Assembly: GCA_009694925.1 (NCBI GenBank)
Contig: SIBX01000001.1
Coordinates: forward strand, 1 to 59,243
Source: Minisyncoccota bacterium
GTDB taxonomy: Bacteria; Patescibacteriota; Minisyncoccia; UBA6257; 1-14-0-10-40-38
Length of the DNA: 59,243 nucleotides
Reading direction: 5' to 3'
Below the pieces are notes generated by a model that worked only from the letters and a program-made list of their open reading frames with translations, searched no databases and was not told where the DNA came from. Position 1 is the stretch's first letter. Each line of letters starts with the position of its first letter. Positions 4,385 through 54,292 of this stretch are shown one piece after another. A program made the translations under genes and the position numbers.

Positions 4385-4393
4385 TATTTAAAT

Positions 4394-4431
4394 AAAAAAA
4401 TCCCGACCTGCATAAGGTCGGGATTTTTTTA
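4394..4431. terminator. bidirectional intrinsic terminator between rplI and rpmA
   Basis: aaaaaaa-atcccgacc-tgcataa-ggtcgggat-ttttttt. Confidence 0.85.
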
Positions 4432-4440
4432 ATGCTATTT

Positions 4441-4725
4441 TTATTTACTAAGCTCCTCAACCAAAACTACCTTTACGTATCTAATGCTTCTGTCAAAATT
4501 TGTTTTCTTTTTATCTAAAAATTTAACTACGCCATTTTTCATAGCATAAAGCGTATCGTCTCCAGCAACTTTAACGTTTGCACCGGCGATATATTTAGAT
4601 CCTCTTTGTCTGATAATGATTTCCCCGACAGAAACTTGTTGGTTCTGATTAACCTTTATTCCAAGGCGCTTAGAACGCGAATCTCTGCCATTTTCTGTTG
4701 AACCACCCGATTTAGTATGTGCCAT
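4441..4725 (-). CDS. rpmA: 50S ribosomal protein L27
   Basis: [24 protein letters not shown]...[10 protein letters not shown] is a canonical L27 sequence. Confidence 0.93.
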
Positions 4726-5513: not shown

Positions 5514-5558
5514 TCCGCAGTGTTAATAATTTTAAAGCCTAATTCCTCATATATTAAT

Positions 5559-7529
5559 ATGAATATAATTAAAAAATTCGGCTTTCTAATCCTTTTTATG
5601 GGGATTTTAGTTTTACCAAATATTACCAATGGTCAATCCAGTAATCTTGGGTTAATTTCAGATATAATAACTTCCTTAAATGCAATAACCGGACAAGTTT
5701 CAAAATTAGAAAACGAAATTTCTAATGTAAAGAAAGAAATAAATAATGTAATGGGATTCGTAGGAAATATTGCTTTATCTACTCAAGATTTATCAGTATT
5801 TATTACTCCCGAGAATGTGATAATTAATAGAAGTATGTCTCTTGGGTCGCGCGGAAAAGAGGTTAAACAATTACAAGAATGCTTAAAAAATATGGGATTT
5901 TTTCCGGATAATCAAGAAATAACAGAATATTATGGAAAAACTACAGAAGGCGCGGTAATTAAGTTTCAGGAGGTAGAGGGAATAATTTCATTAAAAGATG
6001 ACAGTGGAAAAGGAAAATTTGGCCCCAAAACCAGCGCCTCAATAGCTAAATCTTGCGCGAAAAATACAATTATTGCTCCAACCGGCACATCAAGCACCTC
6101 AACATTGCCGATTAAAAATCCTATTAAATACAGCCCCGCTTCTTCATTCTCGCCAGCCTTTCCTGCTCCAAATCCACTAACTTCAACGCCGCCAGACTTA
6201 ATTCCTTTTAACCTTAACGCAGCAAGCCCATCTTCAGGCGTGTGGGATTTTGCTGGGACAATAGTTAATATCGGAAATTCATCTTCAAACATAGGTCAAA
6301 CCAAATTAAGAATAGATCTATTAAGTGATGGAACATGGGACATATTACCATCTAATCAATCAACAAATTCAATCGCTCCTAGAGCTTTTGAAATTGAACA
6401 ATGGAAAAATTTAGCTATAACTTCTGTAGGTACTCACAAATATGAAGTATGTGCAGATGATCTAAATACCACAACGGAATCAAATGAACTAAATAACTGC
6501 ACTTCATCAAGCTTTATTATTTATCCTCCTATCGGAACCCTAACAGCAAGCGTTGATAGCATAATTCCTGCAGAACAGCAATTACTTCTTGGATCGGTTG
6601 GCGTTTCTTTGGGTCAATTTAAATTCACAGCAAATAGCATTGAAGATATAAGAGTTGATACATTAAGAATAACCGCAACAACCTCCGTTAGCTCTCCTTT
6701 TACTTTTACTAATCTTCAATTTTATGATGGGGCTACTAAAATTGGTCCGATTGGAAGTCCATTGGTTGCCACTTCAACGTCATTTTATATGTCGGATTTT
6801 TCCTTTGGAAATTCAATGATTATTCCAAAGAACGTAACTAAGACATTCACCTTGAGGGGAGATATTTCTTCTTATGCAACTTCTCCAAGTTCTCATAATA
6901 AATTTTATAATTTTCAAATTAACTCAGCCAACACTTCTCCTAATCTTGTCGGTGATCTAAAGGGATATGGAATAACTTCCAGTTTTCAGGTTCCAGTCTC
7001 AGCAGTACCGACAACCCTGCAAGCAAACACCCAGCACACGTTAAGAACAAAATTAACCCCCTCTATGAGCACCTTAGGAGCAACATCTAATAGAGTCAGA
7101 AGTGCTAATGATGATATTTCAAAGCTAACACTTGGCGTGAATGGAGATACTGGAGCAGAATTTAAGTCTGTTAATTTCCTATTTTCCGGAAAAGCCATCC
7201 CAAATTCAACAACTATTTATGTTGCCTTAGTGGATGCTTCTAGTGGATCAACATTAGTTTCTACGAATATAAAAACATCAATCGCTACGTCGTCTGGGGT
7301 TAATCTTGTTCTCCCAACTCCATACGTTATAAGTAATGGACTATCTCACGATTTCAAGTTAAGAGTAGATTCTTCAAATTTTGCAAATGGTACAGGCAGC
7401 GATAGTCTGTCTTGGCAATTAGCTTCGACTTCTGCAATTCTTTGGGCAGCACAAGGGAATTCTTCAATTGAAAGCATAGGACTAGAAGCAAGAATTATTC
7501 CGATGACTAATACGGTTTCTTATCAGTAA
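5559..7529 (+). CDS. secreted protein with peptidoglycan-binding (PG_binding_1-like) domain and long Ser/Thr-rich beta-rich region
   Basis: Signal-like MNIIKKFGFLILFMGILVLPNITNG. GSRGKEVKQLQECLKNMGFFPD...GKTTEGAVIKFQ resembles a PG-binding repeat. ATG 5559 preferred over GTG 5520. Confidence 0.7.
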   Translation: MNIIKKFGFLILFMGILVLPNITNGQSSNLGLISDIITSLNAITGQVSKLENEISNVKKEINNVMGFVGNIALSTQDLSVFITPENVIINRSMSLGSRGKEVKQLQECLKNMGFFPDNQEITEYYGKTTEGAVIKFQEVEGIISLKDDSGKGKFGPKTSASIAKSCAKNTIIAPTGTSSTSTLPIKNPIKYSPASSFSPAFPAPNPLTSTPPDLIPFNLNAASPSSGVWDFAGTIVNIGNSSSNIGQTKLRIDLLSDGTWDILPSNQSTNSIAPRAFEIEQWKNLAITSVGTHKYEVCADDLNTTTESNELNNCTSSSFIIYPPIGTLTASVDSIIPAEQQLLLGSVGVSLGQFKFTANSIEDIRVDTLRITATTSVSSPFTFTNLQFYDGATKIGPIGSPLVATSTSFYMSDFSFGNSMIIPKNVTKTFTLRGDISSYATSPSSHNKFYNFQINSANTSPNLVGDLKGYGITSSFQVPVSAVPTTLQANTQHTLRTKLTPSMSTLGATSNRVRSANDDISKLTLGVNGDTGAEFKSVNFLFSGKAIPNSTTIYVALVDASSGSTLVSTNIKTSIATSSGVNLVLPTPYVISNGLSHDFKLRVDSSNFANGTGSDSLSWQLASTSAILWAAQGNSSIESIGLEARIIPMTNTVSYQ

Positions 7530-7575: not shown

Positions 7576-7734
7576 ATGTTTGAGAATTTTAAGACCTGGC
7601 TAAAAGAAAACGAAAAAAGAATATTATTTATCATATTAATATTTTTAGGAATTATCTTAAGTTTCGGCTTAGGATTTCTACTTGGTAAAAGTTCAAAAAT
7701 TACTCCAATTATTATTGAGAAAAACTCTGATTAA
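7576..7734 (+). CDS. small membrane protein (52 aa)
   Basis: Not in the ORF track because it is under 60 aa. ATG..TAA gives MFENFKTWLKENEKRILFIILIFLGIILSFGLGFLLGKSSKITPIIIEKNSD, with one clear TM helix and AT-rich host-like codons. Confidence 0.45.
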   Translation: MFENFKTWLKENEKRILFIILIFLGIILSFGLGFLLGKSSKITPIIIEKNSD

Positions 7735-7740
7735 ATTTTA

Positions 7741-7774
7741 AGTGCCACCCCAGCTTTACGCTAGTAGTGGCACT
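7741..7774. terminator. GC hairpin at the left edge of GC island A
   Basis: agtgccac-(18 nt)-gtggcact. It lies 17 nt downstream of the stop of the minus-strand 7792..8004 ORF. T-run is weak. Confidence 0.5.
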
Positions 7775-7791
7775 TGGACTCCCCGAGATTT

Positions 7792-8004
7792 TCAACTAAG
7801 GATTGTAACACTCCCGTTGGGCTGGAAATATGGCTCGCAGTCCGTATTCATCCTGTGTCCAAGAACTGCGCCGCACTGAGGACAGGTCACATTGGAATGA
7901 TCCCAGCATTGGCAGTTTTGGACAGTGCACCGGTCAAATGTGCCAACCCAGGAACAGGTGCACATGATCCTGGTCTTCAGCTCACATTCCTCTTTTACCG
8001 CCAT
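7792..8004 (-). CDS. GC-rich orphan micro-protein, 70 aa, 9 Cys (zinc-ribbon-like)
   Basis: GGAGGTG lies 5 nt upstream of ATG 8004. Sequence MAVKEECELKTRIMCTCSWVGTFDRCTVQNCQCWDHSNVTCPQCGAVLGH... has CxC, CxC and CxxC pairs. Own promoter and hairpin. Confidence 0.55.
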   Translation of the reverse strand: MAVKEECELKTRIMCTCSWVGTFDRCTVQNCQCWDHSNVTCPQCGAVLGHRMNTDCEPYFQPNGSVTILS

Positions 8005-8046
8005 TCTGTCACCTCCCAAACTTAGAGATAGGAAGCCTCTCTTAAA

Positions 8047-8075
8047 ATTATCAACTCTATTTCTTAAAAAATCAA
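8047..8075 (-). promoter_or_regulatory. predicted sigma70-type promoter for island A ORF
   Basis: Minus strand: TTGATT (8075-8070), 17 nt spacer, GATAAT (8052-8047). Divergent from the rnpB promoter. Confidence 0.5.
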
Positions 8076-8078
8076 GAT

Positions 8079-8107
8079 TTGTATATTTTTTATATTTATG
8101 GTATAAT
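8079..8107 (+). promoter_or_regulatory. predicted promoter of rnpB
   Basis: TTGTAT, 17 nt spacer, TATAAT. The -10 box ends 6 nt before the predicted P1 5' end. Confidence 0.6.
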
Positions 8108-8113
8108 TCTCAA

Positions 8114-8474
8114 TGTCGCTTAGGTGATTACGCAATACCTTAAAAATATTGTGAGGAAAGTCTGGACTCCTATCTCGCGAGAAATCGCGGGTAAACGTAC
8201 CGGTTAAAAGCCGGCTAAGTCAGAAAGTAATTTCTGGTTTAAGAGGTGCGAAAAGTGACGCCCAAAGACGAAAGAATTTGGGAGTCCGCTTGCGGACTAA
8301 TCTCTTCTATATTGAAGGAAGAGAGTGCAACGGCTAAATTCCTTACGAGGTGCAAGATCGTGCTCTAATTTAAAAGTTAGAGAGAATCGCTTGAGCTTGA
8401 AAGTAATTTCAGGCCTAGATAAATTATCATCATCCATTTGCAAGAATGGCACAGAATCCGGCTTATTAGCGACA
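8114..8474 (+). ncRNA. rnpB: RNase P RNA, bacterial type A
   Basis: GAGGAAAGTCTGGACTC (P4 5' strand, 8153-) and ACAGAATCCGGCTTAT (P4 3' strand, 8451-). P1 pairs tgtcgct (8114-8120) with agcgaca (8468-8474). A terminator follows. Confidence 0.9.
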
Positions 8475-8483
8475 AAAACAATA

Positions 8484-8516
8484 AAGACCCGCGCCTAAAG
8501 CGCGGGTCTTTGATTT
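8484..8516 (+). terminator. intrinsic terminator of rnpB
   Basis: agacccgcg-cctaaag-cgcgggtct followed by ttgattt. Confidence 0.8.
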
Positions 8517-8603
8517 GACTATTAAGATTGCTTTTAAGCTAACTGTCCGTTACCATATTACACAGCTCTTGGGACCACACAGCTTCTCAAGCTGGAGAAA
8601 GTC

Positions 8604-8789
8604 TTGGTGGAAAGGGGAAGGCGTTTGGCTGTCGGTCTGTTTCGGATGGTGATCGGAGTCTTTTCAAAGGCTCCAGCGCATGAGGGAGAAGAGAGGACAA
8701 CGGCTCTCAGGGTCTGTCTCGTGGCAGCCCTCGGTACGGTCCTCATCATGTATTTCAGCGAGGGTGGGCACATGTTCCATCCGAACTGA
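8604..8789 (+). CDS. GC-rich orphan ORF, 61 aa, two hydrophobic segments (tentative)
   Basis: GGAG (8594-8597) lies 6 nt before TTG or 9 nt before GTG. Sequence MVERGRRLAVGLFRMVIGVFSK...ALRVCLVAALGTVLIMYF. A strong terminator starts 28 nt after the stop. Non-ATG start and weak promoter. Confidence 0.35.
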   Translation: MVERGRRLAVGLFRMVIGVFSKAPAHEGEERTTALRVCLVAALGTVLIMYFSEGGHMFHPN

Positions 8790-8816
8790 AGCACAAAATA
8801 ATCTCCGTCCACGCTT

Positions 8817-8857
8817 CGGCGCGTCTCACTTTGATAGTGGAACGCGCCGTTTTTTTT
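8817..8857 (+). terminator. intrinsic terminator closing island B1
   Basis: cggcgcgt-(17 nt)-acgcgccg, a perfect 8-bp stem followed by T8. Confidence 0.75.
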
Positions 8858-8859
8858 GT

Positions 8860-8917
8860 AAAAAAAGACCACCTTCGCTTGAATATTTTATATTAAGCTT
8901 GGGTGGTTTTTGGTCTT
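8860..8917 (-). terminator. terminator-like hairpin plus T7 after the 8930..9151 ORF
   Basis: Minus strand reads aagacc..ccacc..ggtgg tcttttttt. It converges on the plus-strand terminator at 8817-8857. Confidence 0.5.
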
Positions 8918-8929
8918 CGACAATAGTCA

Positions 8930-9151
8930 TTATTGAATACTGCCGGATTGAAAAAGTATCGCTTCTGGCCTCAGCTTGTCTGCTCTTTCTTTGCAGATTA
9001 CAGAGCAAAATGGCCTTTTGCATTTGCCGACATAATAGAGGCTGTCGACTGGGATTACTGCTTTACATTCAGTGCAATCGTGTCTGACTTTGGCCATATG
9101 ATGTTCTGGAACCAGATCATCGTCTTCGTATCCTCCAGCGCATCCGCACAT
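8930..9151 (-). CDS. GC-rich orphan micro-protein, 73 aa, FCS/TRASH-like zinc finger
   Basis: GGGAGGAA lies 8 nt upstream of the ATG. ...HDCTECKAVIPVDSLYYVGKCKRPFCSVICKE fits C-x2-C-x19-FCS-x2-C. Confidence 0.55.
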   Translation of the reverse strand: MCGCAGGYEDDDLVPEHHMAKVRHDCTECKAVIPVDSLYYVGKCKRPFCSVICKERADKLRPEAILFQSGSIQ

Positions 9152-9200
9152 CAGAGTTTCCTCCCATGTTTGTGACCGCCATAAGACCAGTGCTTTCTAT

Positions 9201-9230
9201 ATTATAATCTTGATTTAAGACATTTCGCAA
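9201..9230 (-). promoter_or_regulatory. predicted promoter for the 8930..9151 ORF
   Basis: Minus strand: TTGCGA (9230-9225), 18 nt spacer, TATAAT (9206-9201). Confidence 0.5.
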
Positions 9231-9248
9231 ACTGTTTTAAAAATGAAA

Positions 9249-9302
9249 GAGTCCGGTTCAGAATTTTATCTGATACCGGACTCCTGCCCCGCCGTAGCGG
9301 GG
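9249..9302 (-). terminator. tandem hairpins terminating the 9315..9530 ORF
   Basis: gagtccggt-(17 nt)-accggactc plus ccccgc-cgta-gcgggg. On the minus strand they are followed by tttcattttt. Confidence 0.6.
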
Positions 9303-9314
9303 ACTTATTCGCTT

Positions 9315-9530
9315 TCAGGCGGTGGCGACGGCGAGTTGACGCTCGTCGACCATCTCCGTGATCGTCGGAGCCGAGAAGCGCCGGATGAGATCCAGTCCGC
9401 CCGGCTTCCTGCCACCAGCCGCGATGATCATCTGCGCGATGAGCCCGCGAGTGGTCGGAGCACCCCGGAAAGTCCGGATCTCGCAACGGCACTCACCGCT
9501 CACCCTGCATGCCCTTGAGTCGCAAATCAT
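9315..9530 (-). CDS. GC-rich orphan micro-protein, 71 aa, N-terminal Cys cluster
   Basis: MICDSRACRVSGECRCEIRTF... (C-x4-C-x5-C-x-C). Weak SD GGGGAAAG 6 nt upstream. Consensus promoter and terminator hairpins flank it. Confidence 0.45.
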   Translation of the reverse strand: MICDSRACRVSGECRCEIRTFRGAPTTRGLIAQMIIAAGGRKPGGLDLIRRFSAPTITEMVDERQLAVATA

Positions 9531-9622
9531 TTCAGTCTTTCCCCGATTGCCATTCTAGCCTCGTGTTACCGAGCTAGAGGACTGTGAGTGAGTAGGGCCA
9601 ATCCCTTATCACTTACTTTATC

Positions 9623-9652
9623 ATTATATCATACGATACATCTATTTGTCAA
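9623..9652 (-). promoter_or_regulatory. near-consensus promoter of island C
   Basis: Minus strand: TTGACA (9652-9647), 18 nt spacer, TATAAT (9628-9623). Implies an approximately 85-nt GC-rich leader with hairpins before the ATG at 9530. Confidence 0.65.
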
Positions 9653-9666
9653 TATATAAAGCCTAT

Positions 9667-9717
9667 AATCCTTAAAAATAAGGGTTCTGTTGTAAAAATC
9701 CCTTATTTTTAAGGATT
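9667..9717. repeat. perfect 18-bp inverted repeat (hairpin or operator)
   Basis: aatccttaaaaataaggg-(15 nt)-cccttatttttaaggatt. It lies between the divergent island C promoter and the surface-protein promoter. Confidence 0.7.
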
Positions 9718-9743
9718 CTTTATAATTTATAAACTCACAGCTC

Positions 9744-9772
9744 TTTACAAATTAAATTGACCTTGATATAAT
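9744..9772 (+). promoter_or_regulatory. predicted promoter of the 9846..11867 gene
   Basis: TTTACA, 17 nt spacer, TATAAT. Confidence 0.55.
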
Positions 9773-9845
9773 ATGGAAATGAAGGTTGGGCTTAGAACGT
9801 TATTAATAGTAGCGATAAACCCAGAAAATAATTTAAAATAACTAT

Positions 9846-11867
9846 ATGTTCAAAAAAATTATACTTTTAAATATTGCAATTCTTTCGATATTTTTTATCG
9901 ACTTAAACCAAAACAAAACTCTGGCTTCTTTTCCTGGTTATTGTTCTAGCGAAATTATAATTTTTGCACAAGACATAGATGGAGTTACTCCCGGCAATAA
10001 CAATGATACGGCCATAGTAAATAATAGAAATGGAGCCCGCTTAGCAACAATTAATCAGGTAAGCGATGACTACATAGTTTTTCCGAATGATTATTATATT
10101 AAAGTTTATTCTGGAGAAAGAGCCGTTTACGCTGGAGCTCAAAAAGCCAATTTAACTTTCGAAATAGTAGATAATAATTACGCTCTTTTAAACAGCTATT
10201 CTTTCGGGGTTACAAATTCTAATAGAAAAGAGGTTCAAATTAATCAGGACGGCTACATTCATTTTATTAAAAATTTTAAATCGAATCAGTCTAGTTGGAT
10301 TATAATTTGTCCGAAATCAAACTCAAATCCACCACCAACTTCTAACGGCCAAATTACCTGGAGCCAAATTCCAACTCAATATGTAAATATTGGCAGTGTT
10401 TTGCAATTCAATATTTCGGCCAATAGTTCTATAGGAAAAACAATTTCTTATACTGCCGTTAATCTTGCCCAAGGAGCTTCTTTTGATTCAAATACAATGC
10501 AATTTTCTTGGACACCAACTCAATCTGGAACATATAGCGTAACTTTTAGGGCCAGTGACGGAATAAATTCAACAGACATGACAGTTTCCATAATTGTTAA
10601 TGGAACTACTGGAGGTGGCTGTTATTATAGTTGCAATAATAGTTGTGACTACAACAATAATTATAATTATTCAGGATCTTCTATCCTTGAGCAGTACGAT
10701 ATTTTCGGAATTTTTGGAAATTCAAACAATAATTCAAATTATGGCTGTAATAATAATTGTGGTTATTCTGGAAATTGTAATTATAACGACAATAACAACA
10801 ACGGTTCTTATTATCAGAATTATAATATCTACGCCCCAAATTGGAATATAATTCCAACTCAGACAGGATATGCTGGCCAGCTTTTAAGATTTGTTGTTTT
10901 TGCAACCAGCCAAAACAATTCAAATCTTTCTTATTCAGCCTTTAATCTTCCGTCTGGTGCATCTTTTGATTCCGTAACCAGAACTTTTTCTTGGGTTCCA
11001 GGATTCAATCAGATCGGAACATATCACGCTCTATTTAGGGTTACCGATGGATCTTCCGCTTCTCAAGATATGAACATAACCATAAATATTTTAAATAGTG
11101 GTCAAGCTGCTCCAAGTTTTACAGTTTTTGATCCTCCTCTTACTGGAGTTGAAAATCAATCTTGGACATATACGGCTCAGGCCGTTTCAAACGGCGGAGG
11201 TGGTGTTGTTTATAGATTATTAACCGCTCCAGCCGGCATGACCATTAGCCAAATAGCAGGAACAATTAATTGGATTCCAAATTCTTCTCAAGGAAGACCA
11301 AATCCATATTTAGTTACTGTTGGAGCTTCATCTGGATATGCCGAAGCCACTAGATCATTTTATTTAACCATAGCCGACACAGATGGAAATTATTCAATTC
11401 CATATATTCCTCCTTATCAAGGTTCTGGTTCTGGAATTATTCAAAAACCAAATATCAGCAATATAAATATAAATAATATTGATGGGGGAATAAGAATTTC
11501 TTGGAGCACGGATATTCCGGCCAAAGGAAGAGTTGTTTACGGAAGAGAATCTCAGGCCAATAAAGGGGAGCCATATTCATATTCTAACGCCACAAATTAT
11601 TCAGAAGTTAATAAAGATAATTCTGTAAATTTGACAGGTTTGGAAGATAATAAAACTTATTATTTGAGAATAGTTGCCGACGCCTCTGGCGCAGTTTCCA
11701 CGAGTCAAGAAATAAGTTATGTTTATTTAGCAGCCTCCGGCGCTGGTCTTGGATTTGCCTTAGCGTCTTTAGGTGCTCTTATTGCTAACGGTTGGTTTTG
11801 GCTTATAGCCATCCTAGCTATCGGAATCTTCTATGTTTATCCAAAATTCTCAAAAAAAACTGCTTAA
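9846..11867 (+). CDS. large cell-surface protein: signal peptide, three Ig-like (He_PIG-type) repeats, Asn/Tyr/Cys low-complexity linker, Fn3-like domain, C-terminal TM anchor
   Basis: Repeats ...YTAVNLAQGASFDSNTMQFSWTPTQSGTYSVTFRASDG / ...YSAFNLPSGASFDSVTRTFSWVPGFNQIGTYHALFRVTDG / ...YRLLTAPAGMTISQIAGTINWIPN. C-terminus GWFWLIAILAIGIFYVY. Confidence 0.8.
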   Translation: MFKKIILLNIAILSIFFIDLNQNKTLASFPGYCSSEIIIFAQDIDGVTPGNNNDTAIVNNRNGARLATINQVSDDYIVFPNDYYIKVYSGERAVYAGAQKANLTFEIVDNNYALLNSYSFGVTNSNRKEVQINQDGYIHFIKNFKSNQSSWIIICPKSNSNPPPTSNGQITWSQIPTQYVNIGSVLQFNISANSSIGKTISYTAVNLAQGASFDSNTMQFSWTPTQSGTYSVTFRASDGINSTDMTVSIIVNGTTGGGCYYSCNNSCDYNNNYNYSGSSILEQYDIFGIFGNSNNNSNYGCNNNCGYSGNCNYNDNNNNGSYYQNYNIYAPNWNIIPTQTGYAGQLLRFVVFATSQNNSNLSYSAFNLPSGASFDSVTRTFSWVPGFNQIGTYHALFRVTDGSSASQDMNITINILNSGQAAPSFTVFDPPLTGVENQSWTYTAQAVSNGGGGVVYRLLTAPAGMTISQIAGTINWIPNSSQGRPNPYLVTVGASSGYAEATRSFYLTIADTDGNYSIPYIPPYQGSGSGIIQKPNISNININNIDGGIRISWSTDIPAKGRVVYGRESQANKGEPYSYSNATNYSEVNKDNSVNLTGLEDNKTYYLRIVADASGAVSTSQEISYVYLAASGAGLGFALASLGALIANGWFWLIAILAIGIFYVYPKFSKKTA

Positions 11868-11957: not shown

Positions 11958-12068
11958 AATATTTAGTACACGATTCGGTGTGTAAGCCGGATCAACAACA
12001 GAGATTCGCAATTCGAGAGAGGGAGGGTTTCTCTTTAGCCCGCTTTTGTGGGCAGAAGGAATTTTCTC

Positions 12069-12584
12069 ATGAAGGCCTTGATGTTGGTTCTGGCGGTGCT
12101 CCTCGTGGGAGCCTCGGCAGGAGCTGTCTCTTCGGCAACGTCGGCGGAACCGACCACTCTGAAGATGGTCGATCCGTTCGTCTCGGCGACCGTCACGGTG
12201 AACGGCGTCGTGGTGGAGGTGGAGTTCGTGGATCTCTCCACGGGCCTCACGCTCACGACGACGAATCCGGCTCTCGTCGCGATGGCTAGCGATTACGTGA
12301 GCGATCCGGATACGTCATCTGCACGCTTCACCAAGGATGTCAGCGACGGCAACGGGGGCAAGAAGAAGGTCGAGATGACCATCACGGTCACCAAGCGATC
12401 CGAAGAGTCCGGCAAGGAATTCCTCAGGCGCTTCGAGAAGCGTTGCGAGGACGCCATCTCTTCTGGTTGGGAGCCCGTCGTCACGCCGACGTCGAACGTC
12501 TACGACTCGAACCGGCCGGTCCTCGACGTCGTCCATCTCTACGACAGGGACGACCCGCCTTCGGACATCGGCAACGCTGTCTGA
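12069..12584 (+). CDS. GC-rich orphan secreted protein (171 aa)
   Basis: GAAGGAA lies 8 nt upstream of the ATG. Signal peptide MKALMLVLAVLLVGASAGAVSSATSA. Codons overwhelmingly end in G/C. A strong terminator follows directly. Confidence 0.7.
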   Translation: MKALMLVLAVLLVGASAGAVSSATSAEPTTLKMVDPFVSATVTVNGVVVEVEFVDLSTGLTLTTTNPALVAMASDYVSDPDTSSARFTKDVSDGNGGKKKVEMTITVTKRSEESGKEFLRRFEKRCEDAISSGWEPVVTPTSNVYDSNRPVLDVVHLYDRDDPPSDIGNAV

Positions 12585-12589
12585 ATGCC

Positions 12590-12637
12590 GACCCCCACTT
12601 TGCAAGCCAAGACTTGCGAGTGGGGGTCATTTTTTTA
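12590..12637 (+). terminator. intrinsic terminator of island D
   Basis: gacccccact-(19 nt)-agtgggggtc followed by a, T7. Confidence 0.85.
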
Positions 12638-12654
12638 TTTCATACTTTTTGTTT

Positions 12655-17617: not shown

Positions 17618-17872
17618 ATGTCTGGAAGGAAGAAGGCGGTTGGTCCAGTTGAGTCTGGGGAGACACAAGAAAAAGTCCGCAAGATCAGTTCGTGTAGGCT
17701 TTGTGAGGGAACCGGCAAGGTTCCTCTCCGTTGCGGTGGCAAGTCTGAATGTGCTTGCACTTCTTCGACTAACAAGTCGAAGCGCGCTGCACTCAATCCG
17801 AGACACCTTTCTCTGACTACTCGTGGGGCGAACTTTCACGCCCTGCAACGCGAACGTAGCCACCCGTCCTGA
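17618..17872 (+). CDS. GC-rich orphan micro-protein, 84 aa, CxxCxGxG Cys cluster
   Basis: GGGAGA lies 5 nt upstream of the ATG. ...KISSCRLCEGTGKVPLRCGGKSECACTSS. An alternative in-frame ATG at 17570 sits right at the predicted TSS (leaderless option). Confidence 0.5.
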   Translation: MSGRKKAVGPVESGETQEKVRKISSCRLCEGTGKVPLRCGGKSECACTSSTNKSKRAALNPRHLSLTTRGANFHALQRERSHPS

Positions 17873-19683: not shown

Positions 19684-19687
19684 ATTT

Positions 19688-19725
19688 AAAGCGTCCAGCT
19701 GGGCTCTCCCATCTGGACGCTTTTT
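19688..19725. terminator. bidirectional terminator between serS and the island F ORF
   Basis: aaa-gcgtccag-(14 nt)-ctggacgc-ttttt. Confidence 0.8.
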
Positions 19726-19734
19726 GTATCAACA

Positions 19735-19923
19735 TCACGAACCTCCAGCCTTCTTTTTAGGAGAACCATCTCGGAAGATAAAGAACCAAAAAAGAAATAC
19801 AACGACGGGCAACAACACAGCGCAAGTAGATAGAATGTGTTCGCTATCAAAGCGGTGAAGAACGTCAGTCGCAAAGCCCATCCAGCTGCCCGGAATTGGA
19901 CACTTACTCTCCTCCTGTGGCAT
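19735..19923 (-). CDS. GC-rich orphan small membrane protein, 62 aa (C-terminal TM helix plus basic tail)
   Basis: AAGGTGGA lies 3-4 nt upstream of the ATG. MPQEESKCPIPGSWMGFATDVLHRF...CAVLLPVVVFLFWFFIFRDGSPKKKAGGS. Confidence 0.5.
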   Translation of the reverse strand: MPQEESKCPIPGSWMGFATDVLHRFDSEHILSTCAVLLPVVVFLFWFFIFRDGSPKKKAGGS

Positions 19924-20011
19924 TTTCCACCTTTTCCTTTTCTATTTGCCAATCGGTCTGTGTGCTGTTTTTCAGTCTACGACAATATTTCAAATTATTA
20001 AAGTCTTAGAT

Positions 20012-20266
20012 AAAAAAAGAACCCGGGGCCACACTGGTTGTGTGACTACCCGGGCGCAGAACAGCCCCATTCCCTAACTTTACAAGAGATTGCGATCTTA
20101 CCTAGGATCATCATCGCAGGCGTGGATTGTCGAAAAGACCAATCTGAGCGCACTTAGGGAGACTCCGAACATAACCAGACTGAAGTTCGATCTAGTTGCA
20201 GCGTCTTGTTGCCGGCAAGGAGTCTTTTCCCCTTATATCTAGCAAAGACCAGAGGGAACTTTCTGC
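20012..20266 (-). ncRNA. ORF-less GC-rich structured RNA, about 250 nt (independent sRNA or terminator-ending leader of the 62-aa ORF)
   Basis: Its promoter is at 20273-20300. Helices 20160-20166/20219-20225 and 20091-20096/20113-20118. Minus-strand terminator cccggg..cacac-aacca-gtgtg..cccggg followed by T7 (20012-20056). No ORF of 60 aa or more. Confidence 0.5.
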
Positions 20267-20272
20267 CCGTTT

Positions 20273-20300
20273 ATAATATCACAACTTTTAAAAGTTACAA
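20273..20300 (-). promoter_or_regulatory. predicted promoter of the island F RNA
   Basis: Minus strand: TTGTAA, 16 nt spacer, TATTAT. The -35 lies in a near-palindrome shared with the divergent ddl promoter. Confidence 0.5.
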
Positions 20301-20324
20301 ACTATGTCATTTTATGGTTAATAT
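20295..20324 (+). promoter_or_regulatory. predicted ddl promoter, leaderless geometry
   Basis: TTACAA, 18 nt spacer, TAATAT, then only 5 nt to ATG 20330. No SD. Confidence 0.45.
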
Positions 20325-20329
20325 ATTCA

Positions 20330-21490: not shown

Positions 21491-22009
21491 CTAGCTCGCG
21501 CGCTTCTCCGATCGGGTCGAGGGGATTTTCCCGACTCGACGCAGTTCCTTGATGGCGCTCTTGCGAACCATGAGCGGCGCCCTGGATCGATCCAGTCGAT
21601 CGAGCTCCGCTATGGTCCGGCAAACCGAACCCAAGAGCAGTTTTTCGACTCCCTGGAGGCGAAGCTTCTCGGCTTCTGCATCTGCGAGCTTCACCCTTGT
21701 CTCCGCCAATATTGCCCTGTCATCCTCCAGTCGCCGGATGATTCCGACAATGTGCACGATCTGCTCTTCGGTCGGCGGACCCTGGAGAAGACCGAGAGTC
21801 GTCTGGACCTCGCCAGCCAAGCTCTCGTCGGTCTGCTCGAACTCCGGATCTTTGAAAACCGGAATTCTTGTGACCGTAACCTGTTCCGGGGTCAAAGAGA
21901 TTTGAACATTTCTCACGGTTCTCTCCCATTGTTCCGGCTTCATCCCAAATAGGGAATCAGCTTGGTTGTTCTGTTTTTGGTGCCGAGATAACTCCCAGCT
22001 ACCTTCCAT
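21491..22009 (-). CDS. GC-rich orphan protein (172 aa as listed; true start uncertain)
   Basis: A long ORF spans the whole island with a helical/coiled-coil-like C-terminal half (RLEDDRAILAETRVKLADAEAEKLRLQGVEKLL). The listed ATG 22009 is only 1 nt from the -10 box, so Met23 (21943) may be the real start. Confidence 0.55.
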   Translation of the reverse strand: MEGSWELSRHQKQNNQADSLFGMKPEQWERTVRNVQISLTPEQVTVTRIPVFKDPEFEQTDESLAGEVQTTLGLLQGPPTEEQIVHIVGIIRRLEDDRAILAETRVKLADAEAEKLRLQGVEKLLLGSVCRTIAELDRLDRSRAPLMVRKSAIKELRRVGKIPSTRSEKRAS

Positions 22010-24502: not shown

Positions 24503-24504
24503 TA

Positions 24505-24533
24505 TTGACTTAAAATATTTATATTGTTAAGGT
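24505..24533 (+). promoter_or_regulatory. predicted promoter of the island H RNA (extended -10)
   Basis: TTGACT, 17 nt spacer ending in TGt, then TAAGGT. Confidence 0.55.
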
Positions 24534-24539
24534 TTTAGA

Positions 24540-24830
24540 GAAGTAAGTCGAGAAGTCGCAAGTCAGCTTTTGGACGCTAAGCTTTCCTTCTTTGCCAGCA
24601 TCCAAAAGTCCGCAAATGGGCTCTTCTTCGCACAAGAGTTGAATTTCTCGTTTCATTCGGTCTCTCAATCCTCGGGCGACCACTGGCTAACCGACTAGAC
24701 CCGGTAAGCCGATACGGTGAGCAATCTCTGGGACAATGTAAGAGTTAATGAACCAGGGAGCGAGAAAAATTGTGCTTCTAGGCTTATCGGCTTCGGGTTG
24801 AGGCAACTCCTCCGCCCGAAGCCTCTTTAA
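24540..24830 (+). ncRNA. ORF-less GC-rich structured RNA, about 290 nt (sRNA or leader upstream of ychF)
   Basis: Helix 24567-24574/24601-24608. Terminator ggcttcggg-(17 nt)-cccgaagcc followed by tcttt (24789-24830). 24706-24714 can pair with 24785-24793, which overlaps the terminator 5' arm. Confidence 0.5.
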
Positions 24831-33508: not shown

Positions 33509-34234
33509 ATGGCGAACTTCGCATTGAGCAAGACCTTTCAGATGATCGTTGACTACGATCTTCGACCGGGAGAGCTGATTGCTTATTCCGGTGTCCAGGA
33601 AGTCGCCAATTGGCAAGAGATGGATAGCGCGTTCTATCATCTCGCCAACGACCGCAGCAAGTTCCCTTGCGGGAACGAGCACCTGGTCCGGTATGAGGCG
33701 CGTGTGAGCACTCGCCAACCCTTCGTCAGCGGAGACGAGAGGCAGGTTCTGGTTGATGCGGCTATCGTTACGTTGAACGAGCCGATCAACGAGCGCCGAG
33801 ATCCTCCACGGGAGAGCGATGACCTCCACGACTTCGTCCAAGAAGTCGAGCGGATGGGCTATCGCCAAGCCAACTTCCGAGAAGTTCTAACTCTCGGCAG
33901 CGTGGCACTTCTTCCCGAGGAGCTTCTGACGCCCTTCGCCTTGATTGGTAGCAGTTTCCATGTTGACTGGAAACTGTCCAGGCAGGTGTTGGGCGAGAGC
34001 TGGGGAGGGAAGTTTCCGCTCCTGGCTCTTGGCGCTGGATGGGTCGACTGCACTGGAGGAGAAGTTGTCACTCCCTGCTTCGAGTTCGTCCGTGGCCGTC
34101 GCGCTCTGTCGTTCCAGGAGTACTTGTGGTGCGGTGTTGAGATCAGCACCAGGTACCGCATCCTCGTTATCAAGAGGACAGACGGACCCGCGACGATTGT
34201 GGCCAACCCACTTCCTCGCGACCGGAGTGTCTAA
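33509..34234 (+). CDS. GC-rich orphan protein (241 aa)
   Basis: AAGGAG lies 9 nt upstream of the ATG. The ORF spans the island with G/C-ending codons. Hairpins follow the stop. No family recognised by eye. Confidence 0.7.
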   Translation: MANFALSKTFQMIVDYDLRPGELIAYSGVQEVANWQEMDSAFYHLANDRSKFPCGNEHLVRYEARVSTRQPFVSGDERQVLVDAAIVTLNEPINERRDPPRESDDLHDFVQEVERMGYRQANFREVLTLGSVALLPEELLTPFALIGSSFHVDWKLSRQVLGESWGGKFPLLALGAGWVDCTGGEVVTPCFEFVRGRRALSFQEYLWCGVEISTRYRILVIKRTDGPATIVANPLPRDRSV

Positions 34235-46309: not shown

Positions 46310-46375
46310 CCCGTAGTAAGAATTCGGCAAATAAAAATTACTCGCCAAAGGCGAGTAATTGAATTTCACTGCGGG
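46310..46375. repeat. hairpin repeat E3 (GTAGT-hairpin family) at the left edge of island K
   Basis: cccgtagtaagaattc-...attactcgcc-aaa-ggcgagtaat...-gaatttcactgcggg. Starts 3 nt after the murG stop. Confidence 0.6.
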
Positions 46376-46377
46376 AT

Positions 46378-46826
46378 AAAAAAACGGCTCCGAGAGAAGT
46401 GCATGCGACTGTGTCGCAATTACAACCCCCGGAGCCTTACTCGACAACCCTTTCTTCACCTATTGGGGATTCCTATCAGCCTGGTTCGAAACCCTAGCTG
46501 ATCTGATGCCGCCATTGCCCAAAAACGCGGGCGTTCGGTGAACAGGTACGAGAGACTGCTGATCTCAGCCAATTCTCGACGAGCGGGTTATGAGAGCGGG
46601 GATGGTGGCTTGGTTTCAGCCAAGCCGGGGTCCTTTTCCTCAAACGTGACAACCCCCCACTAAGTCGAGAAAAACCGATCGCAATCTCTGTGTCCCTTTC
46701 TGGAGTTGTTTACCCCATAGGAGAAACCTGAGCCAGGCTTGCTTTTTACGAACAGATACACTGGCTTTCTCTGTTCGTTACCGCACTTTTACTCTAGTTG
46801 AGATCACGGCAACTCTCAACCATTAC
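46378..46826 (-). ncRNA. large ORF-less GC-rich structured RNA candidate, about 450 nt
   Basis: A consensus promoter lies at 46833-46861. Terminator ggctccg-(37 nt)-cggagcc followed by g, T7 on the minus strand (46378-46436). Helices 46573-46580/46664-46671, 46607-46613/46620-46626, 46750-46755/46771-46776 and 46797-46803/46814-46820. No internal ORF of 60 aa or more; the only listed ORF touching the interval (46250..46459, minus) merely enters its terminator end from outside. Confidence 0.55.
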
Positions 46827-46832
46827 TCTTCC

Positions 46833-46861
46833 AGTATAGCATACCTAATTTTTATTGTCAA
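46833..46861 (-). promoter_or_regulatory. near-consensus promoter of the island K RNA
   Basis: Minus strand: TTGACA (46861-46856), 17 nt spacer, TATACT (46838-46833). Confidence 0.65.
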
Positions 46862-53826: not shown

Positions 53827-53904
53827 TAGAATTCAGAATTAAGAATTTAGGTTTTTTTAACCCCATTCTCTCCTAAATTCTGCATTCTATATTCTATCCA
53901 TAAA

Positions 53905-54195
53905 TATTTCTCCCCTCGACAAGCAATGCTTGGAGCGAGGGGGCAAGGAAAGGCTCGGAGACTAGTCGGCGGAAGAGAGACCGCTGTGGGGCGATGGCGG
54001 CGAAACGGGGAATGCCCATACAGAGTTCATCATCCGTCTACCAGTCTCCGAGCACAGAATTTCAAAGAACAGGAGTGGGAGATGAACTTGCGCCATAGCT
54101 AGCCCGTGCCCACGGTAACCATGGCATGCCTACGTGCTTCTCTCATCTCAGGAGGATTCTTTGCGTGCCCACTCGTCTCCCGCTCCTGTTCGTGC
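53905..54195 (+). ncRNA. ORF-less GC-rich structured RNA candidate, about 290 nt (strand tentative)
   Basis: Helices 53912-53918/53936-53942, 53954-53963/54043-54052 (10 bp) and 54067-54082/54176-54191 (16 bp). Three G-T pairs are tolerated only on the plus strand versus one on the minus. No clear promoter or T-run. Confidence 0.4.
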
Positions 54196-54292
54196 TGAAT
54201 TAATAATAGCATATTGATTTTTATAAAAAATAAAAAAAGTGGATAAGTATTATAATAATTATTCCAACTGATATCCTGCGGATAAGTTTATT

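What the first reader, a model, noticed from the sequence alone, without database searches (positions are those of the whole stretch)
7741..9660. Four independent GC-rich mini-gene cassettes packed around rnpB
In 1.9 kb, RNase P RNA is flanked by units A (7792-8004, minus), B1 (8604-8789, plus), B2 (8930-9151, minus) and C (9315-9530, minus). Each has its own SD and a terminator or terminator-like hairpin, and A, B2 and C also have a good predicted promoter (B1's is weak). B1 and B2 converge on back-to-back terminators at 8817-8857 and 8860-8917. This is the densest cluster of islands in the window. It lies next to the one structured RNA that could be identified with confidence, so it may be a hotspot for whatever process creates or inserts the islands.
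Basis: partly seen in the sequence, partly recalled or inferred. Interest (0 to 1): 0.7.

Follow-up and report, generated by a model that had tools for sequence, protein, structure and literature searches.

The report
Four hidden microprotein genes around rnpB
Four tiny, separately switched genes sit around the RNase P RNA gene of an AT-rich candidate-phyla-radiation (CPR) bacterium; they are real, conserved in two related genomes but swapped between lineages gene by gene, missing from public annotation, and written in a different genetic style from the rest of the chromosome.

Summary
rnpB lies at 8112-8480. Units A, B1, B2 and C are at the stated coordinates, each with its own promoter, ribosome-binding site and hairpin terminator. 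They are protein-coding. Two related metagenome genomes (L001, L012) carry the same four genes in the same order and orientation. The proposed frame scores best of six in all four units. Between closely related alleles dN/dS is 0.10-0.32. A, B2 and C are soluble, Cys-rich, probably Zn-binding proteins; B2 fits the zf-FCS signature exactly. B1 is a small membrane protein.

The "insertion hotspot" idea is only partly right. Nothing was inserted since the three genomes split. However, the cluster is the most mosaic part of 16 kb of shared synteny. A and B2 are 93% and 86% identical between the window and L012 but about 35-46% to L001. C is 79% identical between L012 and L001 but 41% to the window. 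B1 differs everywhere.

The units also use Shine-Dalgarno sites and mostly GC-rich codons, whereas 64 of 66 host genes have no SD core. Gene callers and the deposited annotation miss all four, so protein databases are blind to them. Their function is unknown; I infer fast-evolving interaction or conflict microproteins.

The parts
7741..7776 (.). GC-rich hairpin between the 52-aa host gene (+) and unit A (-). It is terminator-like but has no U-run on either side.
   Evidence: The fold places it as the 3' terminal hairpin. It is conserved with changed stem bases in L001 and L012.
7792..8004 (-). Unit A ORF, 70 aa, 9 Cys. Motif: C-x-C-x-W-x-G ... C ... CPxC. Soluble, predicted all-beta, probably Zn-binding.
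   Evidence: It is 93% identical to L012 and 46% to L001; omega is 0.10 between the window and L012.
8010..8017 (-). Shine-Dalgarno site of A (GGGAGGTG), 5 nt before the ATG.
   Evidence: L012 has GGGAGGTG and L001 has AGGAGG.
8047..8075 (-). Promoter-like site of A (TTGATT-17-GATAAT), back to back with the rnpB promoter.
8079..8107 (+). rnpB promoter (TTGTAT-17-TATAAT).
   Evidence: Read from the sequence. It is nearly invariant in L001 and 98% identical to L012.
8112..8480 (+). RNase P RNA, bacterial class A.
8483..8511 (+). rnpB terminator hairpin (13 bp, 8 G-C pairs).
   Evidence: conserved in L001.
8528..8556 (+). B1 promoter (TTGCTT-17-TACCAT; the -10 reads TATTAT in L001).
8594..8598 (+). 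SD of B1 (GGAGA).
   Evidence: L012 has GGAGG and L001 has GGGAGGG.
8604..8789 (+). Unit B1 ORF, 61 aa, TTG/GTG start. Small membrane protein with one strong hydrophobic segment, a weaker N-terminal one and an acidic loop.
   Evidence: It is 25-43% identical in all three pairs.
8817..8857 (+). B1 intrinsic terminator (hairpin plus T8).
8860..8917 (-). B2 intrinsic terminator (hairpin plus U-run), back to back with the B1 terminator.
8930..9151 (-). Unit B2 ORF, 73 aa. Acidic N-terminal tail, VPEHH motif, then C-x2-C-x18-FCS-x2-C (zf-FCS/TRASH-like C2C2 finger).
   Evidence: It is 86% identical to L012 and 36% to L001; omega is 0.11.
9158..9165 (-). SD of B2 (GGGAGGAA).
9201..9230 (-). B2 promoter-like site (TTGCGA-18-TATAAT).
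9236..9300 (-). Two hairpins after C. The second is followed by a U-rich run (terminator).
   Evidence: Conserved with compensatory changes.
9315..9530 (-). Unit C ORF, 71 aa. N-terminal Cys cluster, then a probably helical C-terminal part that ends in RQLAVATA.
   Evidence: The L012-L001 pair is 79% identical; the window is 41% identical to both.
9531..9622 (-). 5' UTR of C, about 90 nt. It holds a G-rich SD-like tract (GGGGAAAG, 9537-9544) and a 19-nt block (9593-9611) identical in L001.
9623..9652 (-). C promoter, a perfect TTGACA-18-TATAAT with extended TG.
   Evidence: conserved in L001.

Best explanation
The cluster consists of four resident, monocistronic microprotein genes flanking rnpB in a CPR (Patescibacteria) chromosome. 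NCBI names the window's own proteins 'Candidatus Pacebacteria/Paceibacterota'.

Each unit is built the same way: a sigma70-type promoter, a leader with a Shine-Dalgarno site, a 61-73 codon ORF, and a hairpin terminator. A, B2 and C encode soluble Cys-rich proteins that most likely bind zinc. A carries a CxCxWxG...CPxC module with an all-beta model. B2 carries a zf-FCS/TRASH-type C2C2 finger behind an acidic tail. C has an N-terminal Cys cluster followed by a probably helical domain. B1 encodes a small membrane protein.

Shown:
- The four genes have kept the same positions in all three genomes compared.
- They are under purifying selection within an allele class.
- Each gene exists in deeply divergent allele classes whose distribution among the three genomes differs from gene to gene. 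Synonymous divergence between shared alleles is below the genome background.

Inferred: homologous recombination through the conserved flanks (promoters, terminators, rnpB) swaps alleles cassette by cassette.

Also inferred: the units form a separate expression class. They are SD-led and mostly GC-rich, inside a genome whose housekeeping genes are AT-rich and lack SD sites. The proteins are most likely fast-evolving binding modules in some interaction or conflict, with a phage, a host cell or a rival. Adjacency to rnpB is probably incidental: it is a non-operonic gap that tolerates such genes.
For: Synteny and orthology:
- L001 and L012 carry all four units in the same order and orientation.

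Coding:
- The proposed frame has the best cross-genome alignment score of six in every unit: A 136 against 99 for the next frame, B1 73 against 58, B2 103 against 79, C 90 against 58.
- Indels are in frame and the Cys columns are invariant.
- Between close alleles: A has dN 0.030, dS 0.32, omega 0.10. B2 has omega 0.11. C has omega 0.32.

Mosaicism:
- Amino-acid identities run 0.93/0.46/0.47 for A, 0.86/0.36/0.34 for B2, 0.41/0.41/0.79 for C and 0.25/0.33/0.43 for B1. The 12 neighbouring genes give 0.67-0.97 in all pairs.
- pS is 0.26 for A (window-L012) against a background of 0.547 (p 1.7e-4), and 0.32 for C (L012-L001) against 0.580 (p 3e-4).
- Sliding identity shows sharp switches near the unit boundaries. 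The switches are concentrated in 7821-10287.

Separate transcription units:
- Promoters and terminators are conserved, with compensatory stem changes.

Different style from the host genes:
- GC3 is 0.59-0.76 for A, B1 and C, against 0.24-0.33 for host genes.
- A canonical SD core is present in 9 of the 12 mini-gene copies, and C has a G-rich tract. Only 2 of 66 host ORFs have such a core (Fisher p 6e-8).

Protein features:
- B1 has a hydrophobic segment with KD 2.5-2.7.
- B2 matches CX2CX14-30FCSX2C (PMC4047054).
- The A model has pLDDT 69 and its top hits are Zn-binding beta-tent folds.
- A has one distant relative, P0003, a tandem duplicate of the same module. It is also a stand-alone, SD-led, GC-enriched gene in another AT-rich genome.
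Against: - Only three genomes are available, and each gene has only about 42-50 synonymous sites.
- Alignments at 34-46% identity are uncertain, and B1 has the thinnest coding evidence.
- No transcription or translation data exist.
- Zn binding and fold rest on motifs, one moderate-confidence model and non-significant structural matches (Foldseek E >= 0.1; PDB sequence E >= 0.026). The single-sequence B2 model was poor (pLDDT 46).
- No Pfam, NCBIfam, PHROG or PADLOC family hits.
- Bursts of lineage-specific positive selection, rather than recombination, could explain part of the uneven divergence.
- Part of the wider CPR clade is reported to lack the anti-SD motif in 16S rRNA (PMC9297842). The 16S rRNA of this genome was not available, so SD use by the resident ribosome is inferred only from conservation of the motif.
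Confidence: 0.7

Rival explanations
1. The units are moron-like foreign cassettes. Complete expression units (promoter, SD, ORF, terminator) were acquired horizontally from a GC-richer, SD-using donor, such as an actinobacterial host or its phages, shortly before the three lineages split. They are still only partly ameliorated.
For: - The units contrast with host genes in GC, GC3, SD use and GC-rich terminators.
- Island content does turn over elsewhere. The 12055-12654 island, with a 178-aa signal-peptide-like protein of GC3 0.80, is present only in the window. The PG-binding gene is absent from L001.
- At 4-fold sites about 70% of positions have turned over, so an ancestral GC3 of about 0.9 could still leave about 0.6 today. 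This is my calculation.
Against: - No homologue of A appears among 1.84 billion representative proteins except P0003, which sits in another AT-rich genome.
- No phage, plasmid or viral matches.
- No integration scars or flanking repeats.
- The promoters look like the host's own.
- Four unrelated genes would all have had to arrive side by side before the split.
- B2 has host-like GC3 (0.34-0.48).
- Caveat: protein databases do not contain this gene class at all, so absence of donors is weak evidence.
Confidence: 0.2
2. The units are parts of a conflict system. B1 would be a membrane toxin or immunity-type peptide, and the Cys-rich proteins would be antitoxin, anti-defence or bacteriocin-like partners. 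That would explain the hypervariability.
For: - B1 is a small hydrophobic protein and the most divergent unit.
- The pattern of deep allele classes with purifying selection inside each class is typical of loci under diversifying or frequency-dependent selection. This comparison rests on general knowledge.
Against: - No PADLOC or other family hit.
- No antisense RNA or overlapping partner gene is evident. The units are separated by terminators.
- No modifying enzymes, transporters or leader peptides lie nearby.
Confidence: 0.15
3. The GC-rich islands are structured non-coding RNAs, as GC-rich intergenic regions in AT-rich genomes often are, and the ORFs are incidental.
For: - The folding z-scores of the whole units are -1.9 (A), -2.9 (B1), -3.8 (B2) and -5.4 (C).
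- High-GC sequence keeps several frames open.
Against: - The z-scores include the terminator hairpins.
- No Rfam match other than rnpB.
- ORF length, start, stop, SD and Cys columns are conserved while the nucleotides diverge to 30-55% identity.
- Omega is 0.10-0.32.
- The sense frame scores best of six.
- The RQLAVATA peptide is kept through synonymous changes.
Confidence: 0.03
4. The islands are an assembly chimera or contamination of an AT-rich MAG with GC-rich reads.
For: There are abrupt GC shifts inside a metagenome-assembled contig.
Against: The same arrangement appears in three independent assemblies from different projects, with diverged but orthologous sequence and host-type promoters.
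Confidence: 0.01

Closest known systems
Small stand-alone zinc-finger microproteins, for example the haloarchaeal C(P)xCG-type proteins such as Brz (PMC2253796, seen)
   Same: Under 100 aa, one or two Cys-pair knuckles (A has CPxCG), stand-alone genes in intergenic gaps, and often missed by annotation.
   Different: No detectable sequence relationship. These are bacterial (CPR), hypervariable, and compositionally distinct from their genome. No regulatory role has been shown.
zf-FCS / TRASH clan C2C2 metal-binding fingers (consensus CX2CX14-30FCSX2C, PMC4047054)
   Same: B2 in the window and in L012 reads C-T/A-E/G-C, then 18 residues, then F-C-S-V-I-C. That is an exact fit to the signature.
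   Different: The Pfam models of the clan do not hit B2 or its L001 orthologue even at E 10. The L001 allele keeps the four Cys but has lost the F and the S.
Phage 'morons': extra genes with their own promoter and terminator and atypical composition, inserted between conserved genes (from my own knowledge)
   Same: Each unit is autonomous, with its own promoter and terminator, has deviant base composition, and lies between conserved genes.
   Different: The context is a housekeeping chromosome, not a prophage. The units are at fixed positions across three genomes, and no phage relatives were found.
SD-led minority genes in SD-poor genomes, such as rpsU in Bacteroidota, where the anti-SD is normally sequestered (from my own knowledge)
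   Same: A genome whose bulk genes lack SD sites while a small set carries strong ones.
   Different: Here the SD-led set consists of GC-rich orphan microproteins, not a ribosomal protein. The state of the anti-SD in this organism is unknown.
GC-rich intergenic regions as markers of structured ncRNAs in AT-rich bacteria (PMC6429828, PMC11109978, seen)
   Same: rnpB itself is such a case.
   Different: The four units are protein-coding. They are not structured RNAs.

Membership tests
Bacterial RNase P RNA class A (RF00010), for 8112-8480 | Covariance-model match over the whole model at the curated gathering score | tested here: inconclusive
   Full-length match (positions 1-367), E 4.6e-25, with conserved GAGGAAAGUC and ACAGAAUCCGGCUUA segments. 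The score is 83.1 bits against a gathering score of 100; the L001 orthologue scores 95.5. I accept it as a divergent CPR rnpB.
zf-FCS / TRASH clan (B2) | Signature CX2CX14-30FCSX2C | tested here: met
   In the window: C26-x2-C29, then 18 residues, then F48-C49-S50-x2-C53. L012 is the same. L001 keeps C-x2-C-x18-C-x3-C but lacks the F and S.
zf-FCS / TRASH clan (B2) | Match to the family profile HMMs | tested here: not met
   No Pfam hit at E <= 1 or at E <= 10 for either orthologue. No NCBIfam hit.
Zinc ribbon or beta-tent Zn folds (CULT, MsrB, Mis18/Yippee, Mss4, RIG-I CTD) (A) | Structural similarity of a confident model, with two Cys knuckles forming one Zn site | tested here: inconclusive
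   AF2 with 3 sequences gives pLDDT 69, pTM 0.55, all-beta. The top PDB hits are almost all beta-tent Zn proteins, but with E >= 0.1 and TM 0.4-0.6. The invariant residues are C15, C17, W19, G21, C33, C41, P42 and C44.
Phage moron or mobile gene cassette | Presence/absence polymorphism, a phage or mobile-element context, or relatives in phages or plasmids | tested here: not met
   All four units are present at the same sites in three genomes. The neighbours are housekeeping genes. No phage, plasmid or viral hits.
Integron cassettes, MITEs or IS-type elements | Flanking recombination sites, terminal inverted repeats or target duplications, or repeated copies | tested here: not met
   No meaningful direct or inverted repeats flank the units. 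The islands share no sequence with one another.
Type I toxin-antitoxin (B1) | A small hydrophobic toxin together with an overlapping or adjacent antisense RNA | tested here: inconclusive
   A hydrophobic segment is present. No antisense promoter or overlapping RNA is evident, and B1 and B2 are separated by back-to-back terminators. Toxicity cannot be tested here.
Structured non-coding RNA | A conserved secondary structure with covariation and no conserved reading frame | tested here: not met
   The reading frames are conserved and under purifying selection. No Rfam family matches. Covariation was not analysed, because three sequences are too few.
SD-dependent translation class | An anti-SD (CCUCC) at the 3' end of the resident 16S rRNA | not testable with these tools
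   There is no rRNA in the window or in the fetched loci.

The most novel reading that the evidence does not exclude
This CPR lineage keeps a second 'gene dialect': SD-led, GC-rich, self-terminated cassettes reserved for hypervariable microproteins. These are exchanged allele by allele between lineages and translated under a different initiation regime from the SD-less, AT-rich core genome. One possibility is that translation depends on anti-SD accessibility. That would make this an annotation-invisible accessory proteome, possibly mediating symbiont-host or phage conflict, with its GC content held up by selection or by recombination-linked biased conversion rather than by recent transfer.
Probability: 0.2. 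Interest if true: 0.8.

Novelty: new variant of a known kind. Interest (0 to 1): 0.6.

Why it matters
CPR bacteria are mostly uncultured and are known almost entirely from automated annotation.

Here an entire class of conserved, selected genes is invisible to that annotation:
- No gene was called across this region in L012.
- The L001 proteins A', B2' and C' are not in a 15-billion-protein collection.
- The deposited record has no accession numbers left for these genes.

As a result, homology searches and pangenome statistics for these organisms leave this class out.

The class is also biologically odd. It uses Shine-Dalgarno sites in a genome that otherwise does not. It keeps GC-rich codons against the genome's AT bias. 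It evolves as swappable allele cassettes.

If this is general, it gives a concrete handle on two things. One is how reduced symbionts keep a fast-evolving interaction toolkit. The other is whether they run two translation-initiation modes.

Tried and rejected
Family and structure searches with nothing usable:
- Pfam, PHROGs, NCBIfam and PADLOC on the four proteins and five other island proteins: nothing usable.
- PDB profile searches: only weak Zn-finger-like hits, E 0.026 or worse.
- Foldseek against viral structures: nothing.
- A single-sequence AF2 model of B2 was too poor to use.

Homologue searches:
- The word-indexed search with A, with a C alignment and with an A alignment gave no hits.
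- I later understood why. These genes are not called, so they are not in the database.
- Exhaustive phmmer of A gave three marginal hits. Two are Cys-rich or WD-like repeat proteins, which I dismissed as compositional. P0003 was kept.

Scans of sequence collections:
- Viral contigs with alignments of A, B2 and C and with two rnpB words: nothing.
- blastn and tblastn against phages and plasmids: nothing.
- The metagenome scan anchored on the exonuclease found only relatives at 62% identity or less, and the four I scanned with Rfam had no rnpB nearby.
- Exact look-ups of window proteins failed at first. Cluster look-ups later found L012 but no fourth genome.

Analyses that did not help:
- A parsimony test for the direction of GC change is dominated by a saturation artefact and is uninformative.

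Ideas rejected:
- That the units are paralogues of other islands.
- That A, B2 or C are RNase P protein subunits: no Rpr2/Rpp21 or RnpA hit, and the distant homologue P0003 has no room for rnpB beside it.
- That C is a WhiB-like protein (no Pfam hit).


Full report
WHAT IS THERE

The window is a 35.1% GC bacterial chromosome fragment carrying housekeeping genes: L9, L27, LysRS, SerRS, Ddl, Alr, MurG, GluRS and BipA. Exact-sequence look-ups show it is a 59,243-bp NCBI MAG contig. Its proteins are named 'Candidatus Pacebacteria / Paceibacterota bacterium'. The closest GTDB genome record (L001) is titled 'uncultured Candidatus Saccharibacteria'. Either way it is a CPR/Patescibacteria organism.

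Rfam's default scan misses rnpB. The E-value mode finds a full-length class-A RNase P RNA at 8112-8480 (+): 83.1 bits, E about 1e-23 to 1e-25, below the gathering score of 100.

The four ORFs are exactly at the coordinates given. Each has a purine-rich ribosome-binding site, a sigma70-like promoter and a 3' hairpin. B1, B2 and C have hairpin-plus-U-run terminators. A has a hairpin without a U-run. The three GC-rich stretches (7738-8043, 8535-8862, 9066-9613) are the densest island cluster in the window.

ARE THEY GENES?

A genome-collection scan anchored on the neighbouring 3'-5' exonuclease found L001. A cluster look-up followed by a contig look-up found L012, a 37-kb ENA contig. Both are syntenic with the window over about 16 kb at roughly 75-85% nucleotide identity.

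Both carry rnpB flanked by the same four ORFs in the same order and orientation, each with its own SD, promoter and terminator.

The evidence for coding is:
- Across genomes the proposed frame gives the best alignment score of all six frames in every unit.
- Indels are in frame and the Cys columns are invariant.
- Where two genomes share a similar allele, selection is clearly purifying. A (window-L012) has dN 0.030, dS 0.32, omega 0.10. B2 (window-L012) has omega 0.11. C (L012-L001) has omega 0.32.

The units are therefore translated, functional genes. They are not structured RNAs and not assembly artefacts. B1 has the weakest support: a TTG/GTG start, 25-43% identity in every pair, and the smallest margin over other frames. 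Its start context, length, hydrophobic segment and acidic loop are nevertheless conserved.

WHAT THE PROTEINS LOOK LIKE

A (70 aa, 9 Cys) has the invariant residues C15, C17, W19, G21, C33, C41, P42 and C44, shared with its orthologues. It shares them also with the one distant relative found by exhaustive phmmer, P0003. P0003 is 138 aa and is a tandem duplicate of the module (E 4.5e-4; hhalign probability 79%). An AF2 model built on three sequences is all-beta with pLDDT 69. Its best PDB matches are almost all Zn-binding beta-tent domains (cereblon CULT, MsrB, LGP2/DRH-3 CTD, Mis18/Yippee, Mss4), but none is significant (E >= 0.1).

B2 (73 aa) has an acidic N-terminal tail, a conserved VPEHH motif, and then C-x2-C, 18 residues, F-C-S-x2-C. 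That fits the published zf-FCS signature CX2CX14-30FCSX2C exactly (PMC4047054). The Pfam models do not detect it, and the L001 allele keeps only the four Cys.

C (71 aa) has an N-terminal Cys cluster. From its sequence the C-terminal part looks helical. It ends in RQLAVATA, which is kept through synonymous changes.

B1 (61 aa) has one strongly hydrophobic segment (KD 2.5-2.7) and a weaker N-terminal one around an acidic loop.

No Pfam, NCBIfam, PHROG, PADLOC, PDB, phage, plasmid or viral relative was found.

WHY THE DATABASES ARE SILENT

In L012 the gene caller called nothing between 13125 and 15170, which is the whole stretch holding rnpB and the four units. The exact L001 proteins A', B2' and C' are not in the 15-billion-protein collection, although their neighbours are.

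In the deposited record of the window, the exonuclease is MST03949.1 and the He_PIG protein is MST03952.1. That leaves two accession numbers, which I take to belong to the 669-aa PG-binding protein and the 52-aa protein. By inference, none of the four units is annotated.

'No homologue' results from protein databases are therefore weak evidence for this gene class.

HOTSPOT OR NOT?

Nothing has been inserted here since the three genomes diverged. There are no flanking repeats, and no similarity among the roughly 14 islands of the window.

The divergence pattern, however, is striking:
- The twelve neighbouring genes are 67-97% identical in all three pairs, with pS of 0.55-0.63.
- A is 93% identical between the window and L012 but 46-47% to L001.
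- B2 is 86% against 34-36%.
- C is 79% between L012 and L001 but 41% between the window and either.
- B1 is 25-43% in every pair.
- Between the genomes that share an allele, synonymous divergence is below background. A has pS 0.26 against 0.547 (p 1.7e-4). C has pS 0.32 against 0.580 (p 3e-4).

Sliding-window identity shows abrupt switches of nearest relative:
- 7587-7764: L012 and L001 are 87-100% identical.
- 7793-8166: the window and L012 are mostly 87-98% identical, dipping to 60-83% in the spacer between unit A and the rnpB promoter.
- 8197-8256: L012 and L001 are 100% identical.
- 8928-9238: the window and L012 are closest.
- 9327-9561: L012 and L001 are closest.
- 9769-9857: the window and L001 are closest.

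Six of the seven 200-nt windows with more than 0.2 spread among pairwise identities, across the whole 16-kb synteny, fall in 7821-10287.

The simplest reading is that deep allele classes are exchanged by homologous recombination through the conserved promoters, terminators and rnpB. Lineage-specific bursts of selection could contribute.

A SECOND STYLE OF GENE

The units differ from host genes in more than GC content.

- GC3 is 0.59-0.76 in A, B1 and C and in their L001 orthologues, against 0.24-0.33 in host genes. B2 is only 0.34-0.48.
- At 4-fold sites with a conserved amino acid, the mini-genes are 63% GC and host genes 31%. Third-base identity is similar (0.49 against 0.45), so overall the mini-genes are about as old as their flanks.
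- More surprising, 45 of 47 long host ORFs in the window and 19 of 19 in L001 have no SD core at -18..-3. Several have TATAAT 6-8 nt before the ATG, which looks leaderless.
- By contrast, 9 of the 12 mini-gene copies carry GGAG/GAGG/AGGAGG-type sites at 5-9 nt, and C carries GGGGAAAG or GGGGGGAA. Fisher p is 6e-8.
- Other islands in the window behave the same way (17618, 33048, 33509, 58312).
- More distant relatives (L002, L003, L006, L008, L010) are also SD-poor but almost lack such mini-genes.
- A published survey reports that a Parcubacteria subgroup often lacks the anti-SD motif (PMC9297842). No 16S rRNA was available here, so I infer that the resident ribosome uses these sites only from their conservation.

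WHY GC-RICH?

I could not settle whether the composition is maintained or is a remnant.

About 70% of 4-fold sites have turned over, on my calculation. An ancestral GC3 of about 0.9 could therefore still leave about 0.6, and old transfer from a very GC-rich donor is not excluded.

Three things argue against old transfer:
- No donor was found.
- The only distant relative of A is itself a GC-enriched, SD-led stand-alone gene in another AT-rich genome (52% against 41% GC; GC3 0.63 against about 0.40).
- The promoters look native.

A three-taxon parsimony test of the direction of change is swamped by saturation.

Selection on mRNA structure or stability, amino-acid composition (Cys, Gly, Ala, Arg, Pro), and recombination-linked GC-biased conversion all remain possible.

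MECHANISM, COMMITTED

The cluster is four monocistronic genes: three cytosolic Zn-binding microproteins and one membrane microprotein. The resident polymerase transcribes them from native-type promoters. They are translated through SD pairing, and they evolve as exchangeable allele cassettes.

- Shown: the anatomy, the conservation, purifying selection within allele classes, mosaic ancestry, and the contrast with host genes.
- Inferred: metal binding, recombination as the cause of the mosaic, SD function, and a role in some interaction or conflict.
- The position next to rnpB is probably incidental.

VERDICT

This is a real feature, correctly located. The origin hypothesis needs revising.

The proteins are new, unannotated families of a familiar general kind: small zinc-finger and membrane microproteins. 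The combination of a cassette-wise allelic mosaic, SD-led initiation in an SD-less genome and persistent GC enrichment is unusual and testable.

Limits: only three genomes, very short genes, and no expression data.

Noticed in passing
whole window; L001; L002, L003, L006, L008, L010: Host genes almost never have a Shine-Dalgarno core (2 of 47 in the window, 0 of 19 in L001, 0-2 of 8-15 in more distant relatives). Several have TATAAT 6-8 nt before the ATG, which looks leaderless (for example 23231, 25963, 45174). Strong SD sites occur almost only in GC-rich island genes.
   Followed up: partly
window 12048-12584 (+), island 11999-12654: A 178-aa ORF with a signal-peptide-like N-terminus, 61% GC and GC3 0.80. 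The island is absent from both L001 and L012, which have unrelated short genes at that locus. It is a genuine presence/absence island, unlike the rnpB cluster. No family hit.
   Followed up: partly
window 46336-46861 (-): A GC-rich island with no long ORF. It has a TTGACA-17-TATACT promoter (46861..46833) and a terminator hairpin (46339-46359). The transcript would be about 500 nt, with folding z-score -5.9 and an internal T-arm-like GGGUUUCGAACC. No Rfam or ARAGORN match. It is a candidate unknown structured RNA.
   Followed up: partly
window 9710-10287 (5' third of the He_PIG/PKD surface-protein gene 9846-11867): Mosaic ancestry continues into this gene. The window and L001 are 81-87% identical here, while L012 is only 53-66% identical to either. 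Downstream, the usual pattern returns.
   Followed up: partly
window 5520-7529 (+): A 669-aa PG_binding_1 + CARDB protein is present in the window and in L012 (647 aa) but absent from L001. There the exonuclease gene is followed, after six bases, by the 52-aa gene.
   Followed up: partly
window 9593-9717: The divergent promoter region between C and the He_PIG gene holds four copies of AATCCYTWAW within 118 nt (9 in the whole window). It also holds a perfect 18-bp inverted repeat (9667-9684 / 9700-9717) and a 19-nt block (9593-9611) identical in L001. This may be an operator or an insulator.
   Followed up: partly
window 7576-7734 (+); L012 12934-13125; L001 10730-10888: A conserved AT-rich ORF of 52 aa (63 aa in L012) that looks like a single-pass membrane protein lies next to unit A. 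From the middle of the gene through the downstream hairpin, L012 and L001 are 87-100% identical, while the window is about 75-78% identical to either. This suggests a recent short recombination tract.
   Followed up: partly
L012 13125-15170; L001 minis; NCBI accession numbering MST03949-MST03952: Gene callers and the deposited annotation skip all four mini-genes. The large protein collections therefore do not contain this class, which explains the empty homology searches.
   Followed up: yes
window 17618-17872 (+); L001 20072-20302 (+): Another GC-rich, SD-led, Cys-rich mini-gene (84 aa; CRLC...C.C) lies between LysRS and a cytidylyltransferase-like gene. L001 has a weakly similar Cys-rich 76-aa ORF at the same locus, and the downstream terminator is conserved.
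   Followed up: partly
window 21491-22009 (-), 33048-33239 (+), 33509-34234 (+), 58312-59082 (-): Further GC-rich genes sit between housekeeping genes: 172, 63, 241 and 256 aa. The first three are orphans; the last gives a weak, sub-threshold BtpA match. Three of the four have strong SD sites. None has relatives in plasmids; that was tested for 33509 only.
   Followed up: partly
window 19684-20329, 24503-24868, 28811-29431, 53880-54214: These intergenic stretches have raised GC (0.47-0.53) and no convincing ORF or Rfam match. Their nature was not examined.
   Followed up: no
window 8197-8256 (inside rnpB): The window's rnpB has a 15-nt insertion relative to L001 (the alignment gap). L012 and L001 are 100% identical across this stretch. 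A recombination breakpoint appears to lie inside rnpB itself.
   Followed up: partly
window 4392-4509 (-): An Rfam Thr_leader match scores below threshold (39.5 bits against 55). It overlaps the terminator region next to the L27 gene and is probably a chance match to a hairpin plus U-run.
   Followed up: no
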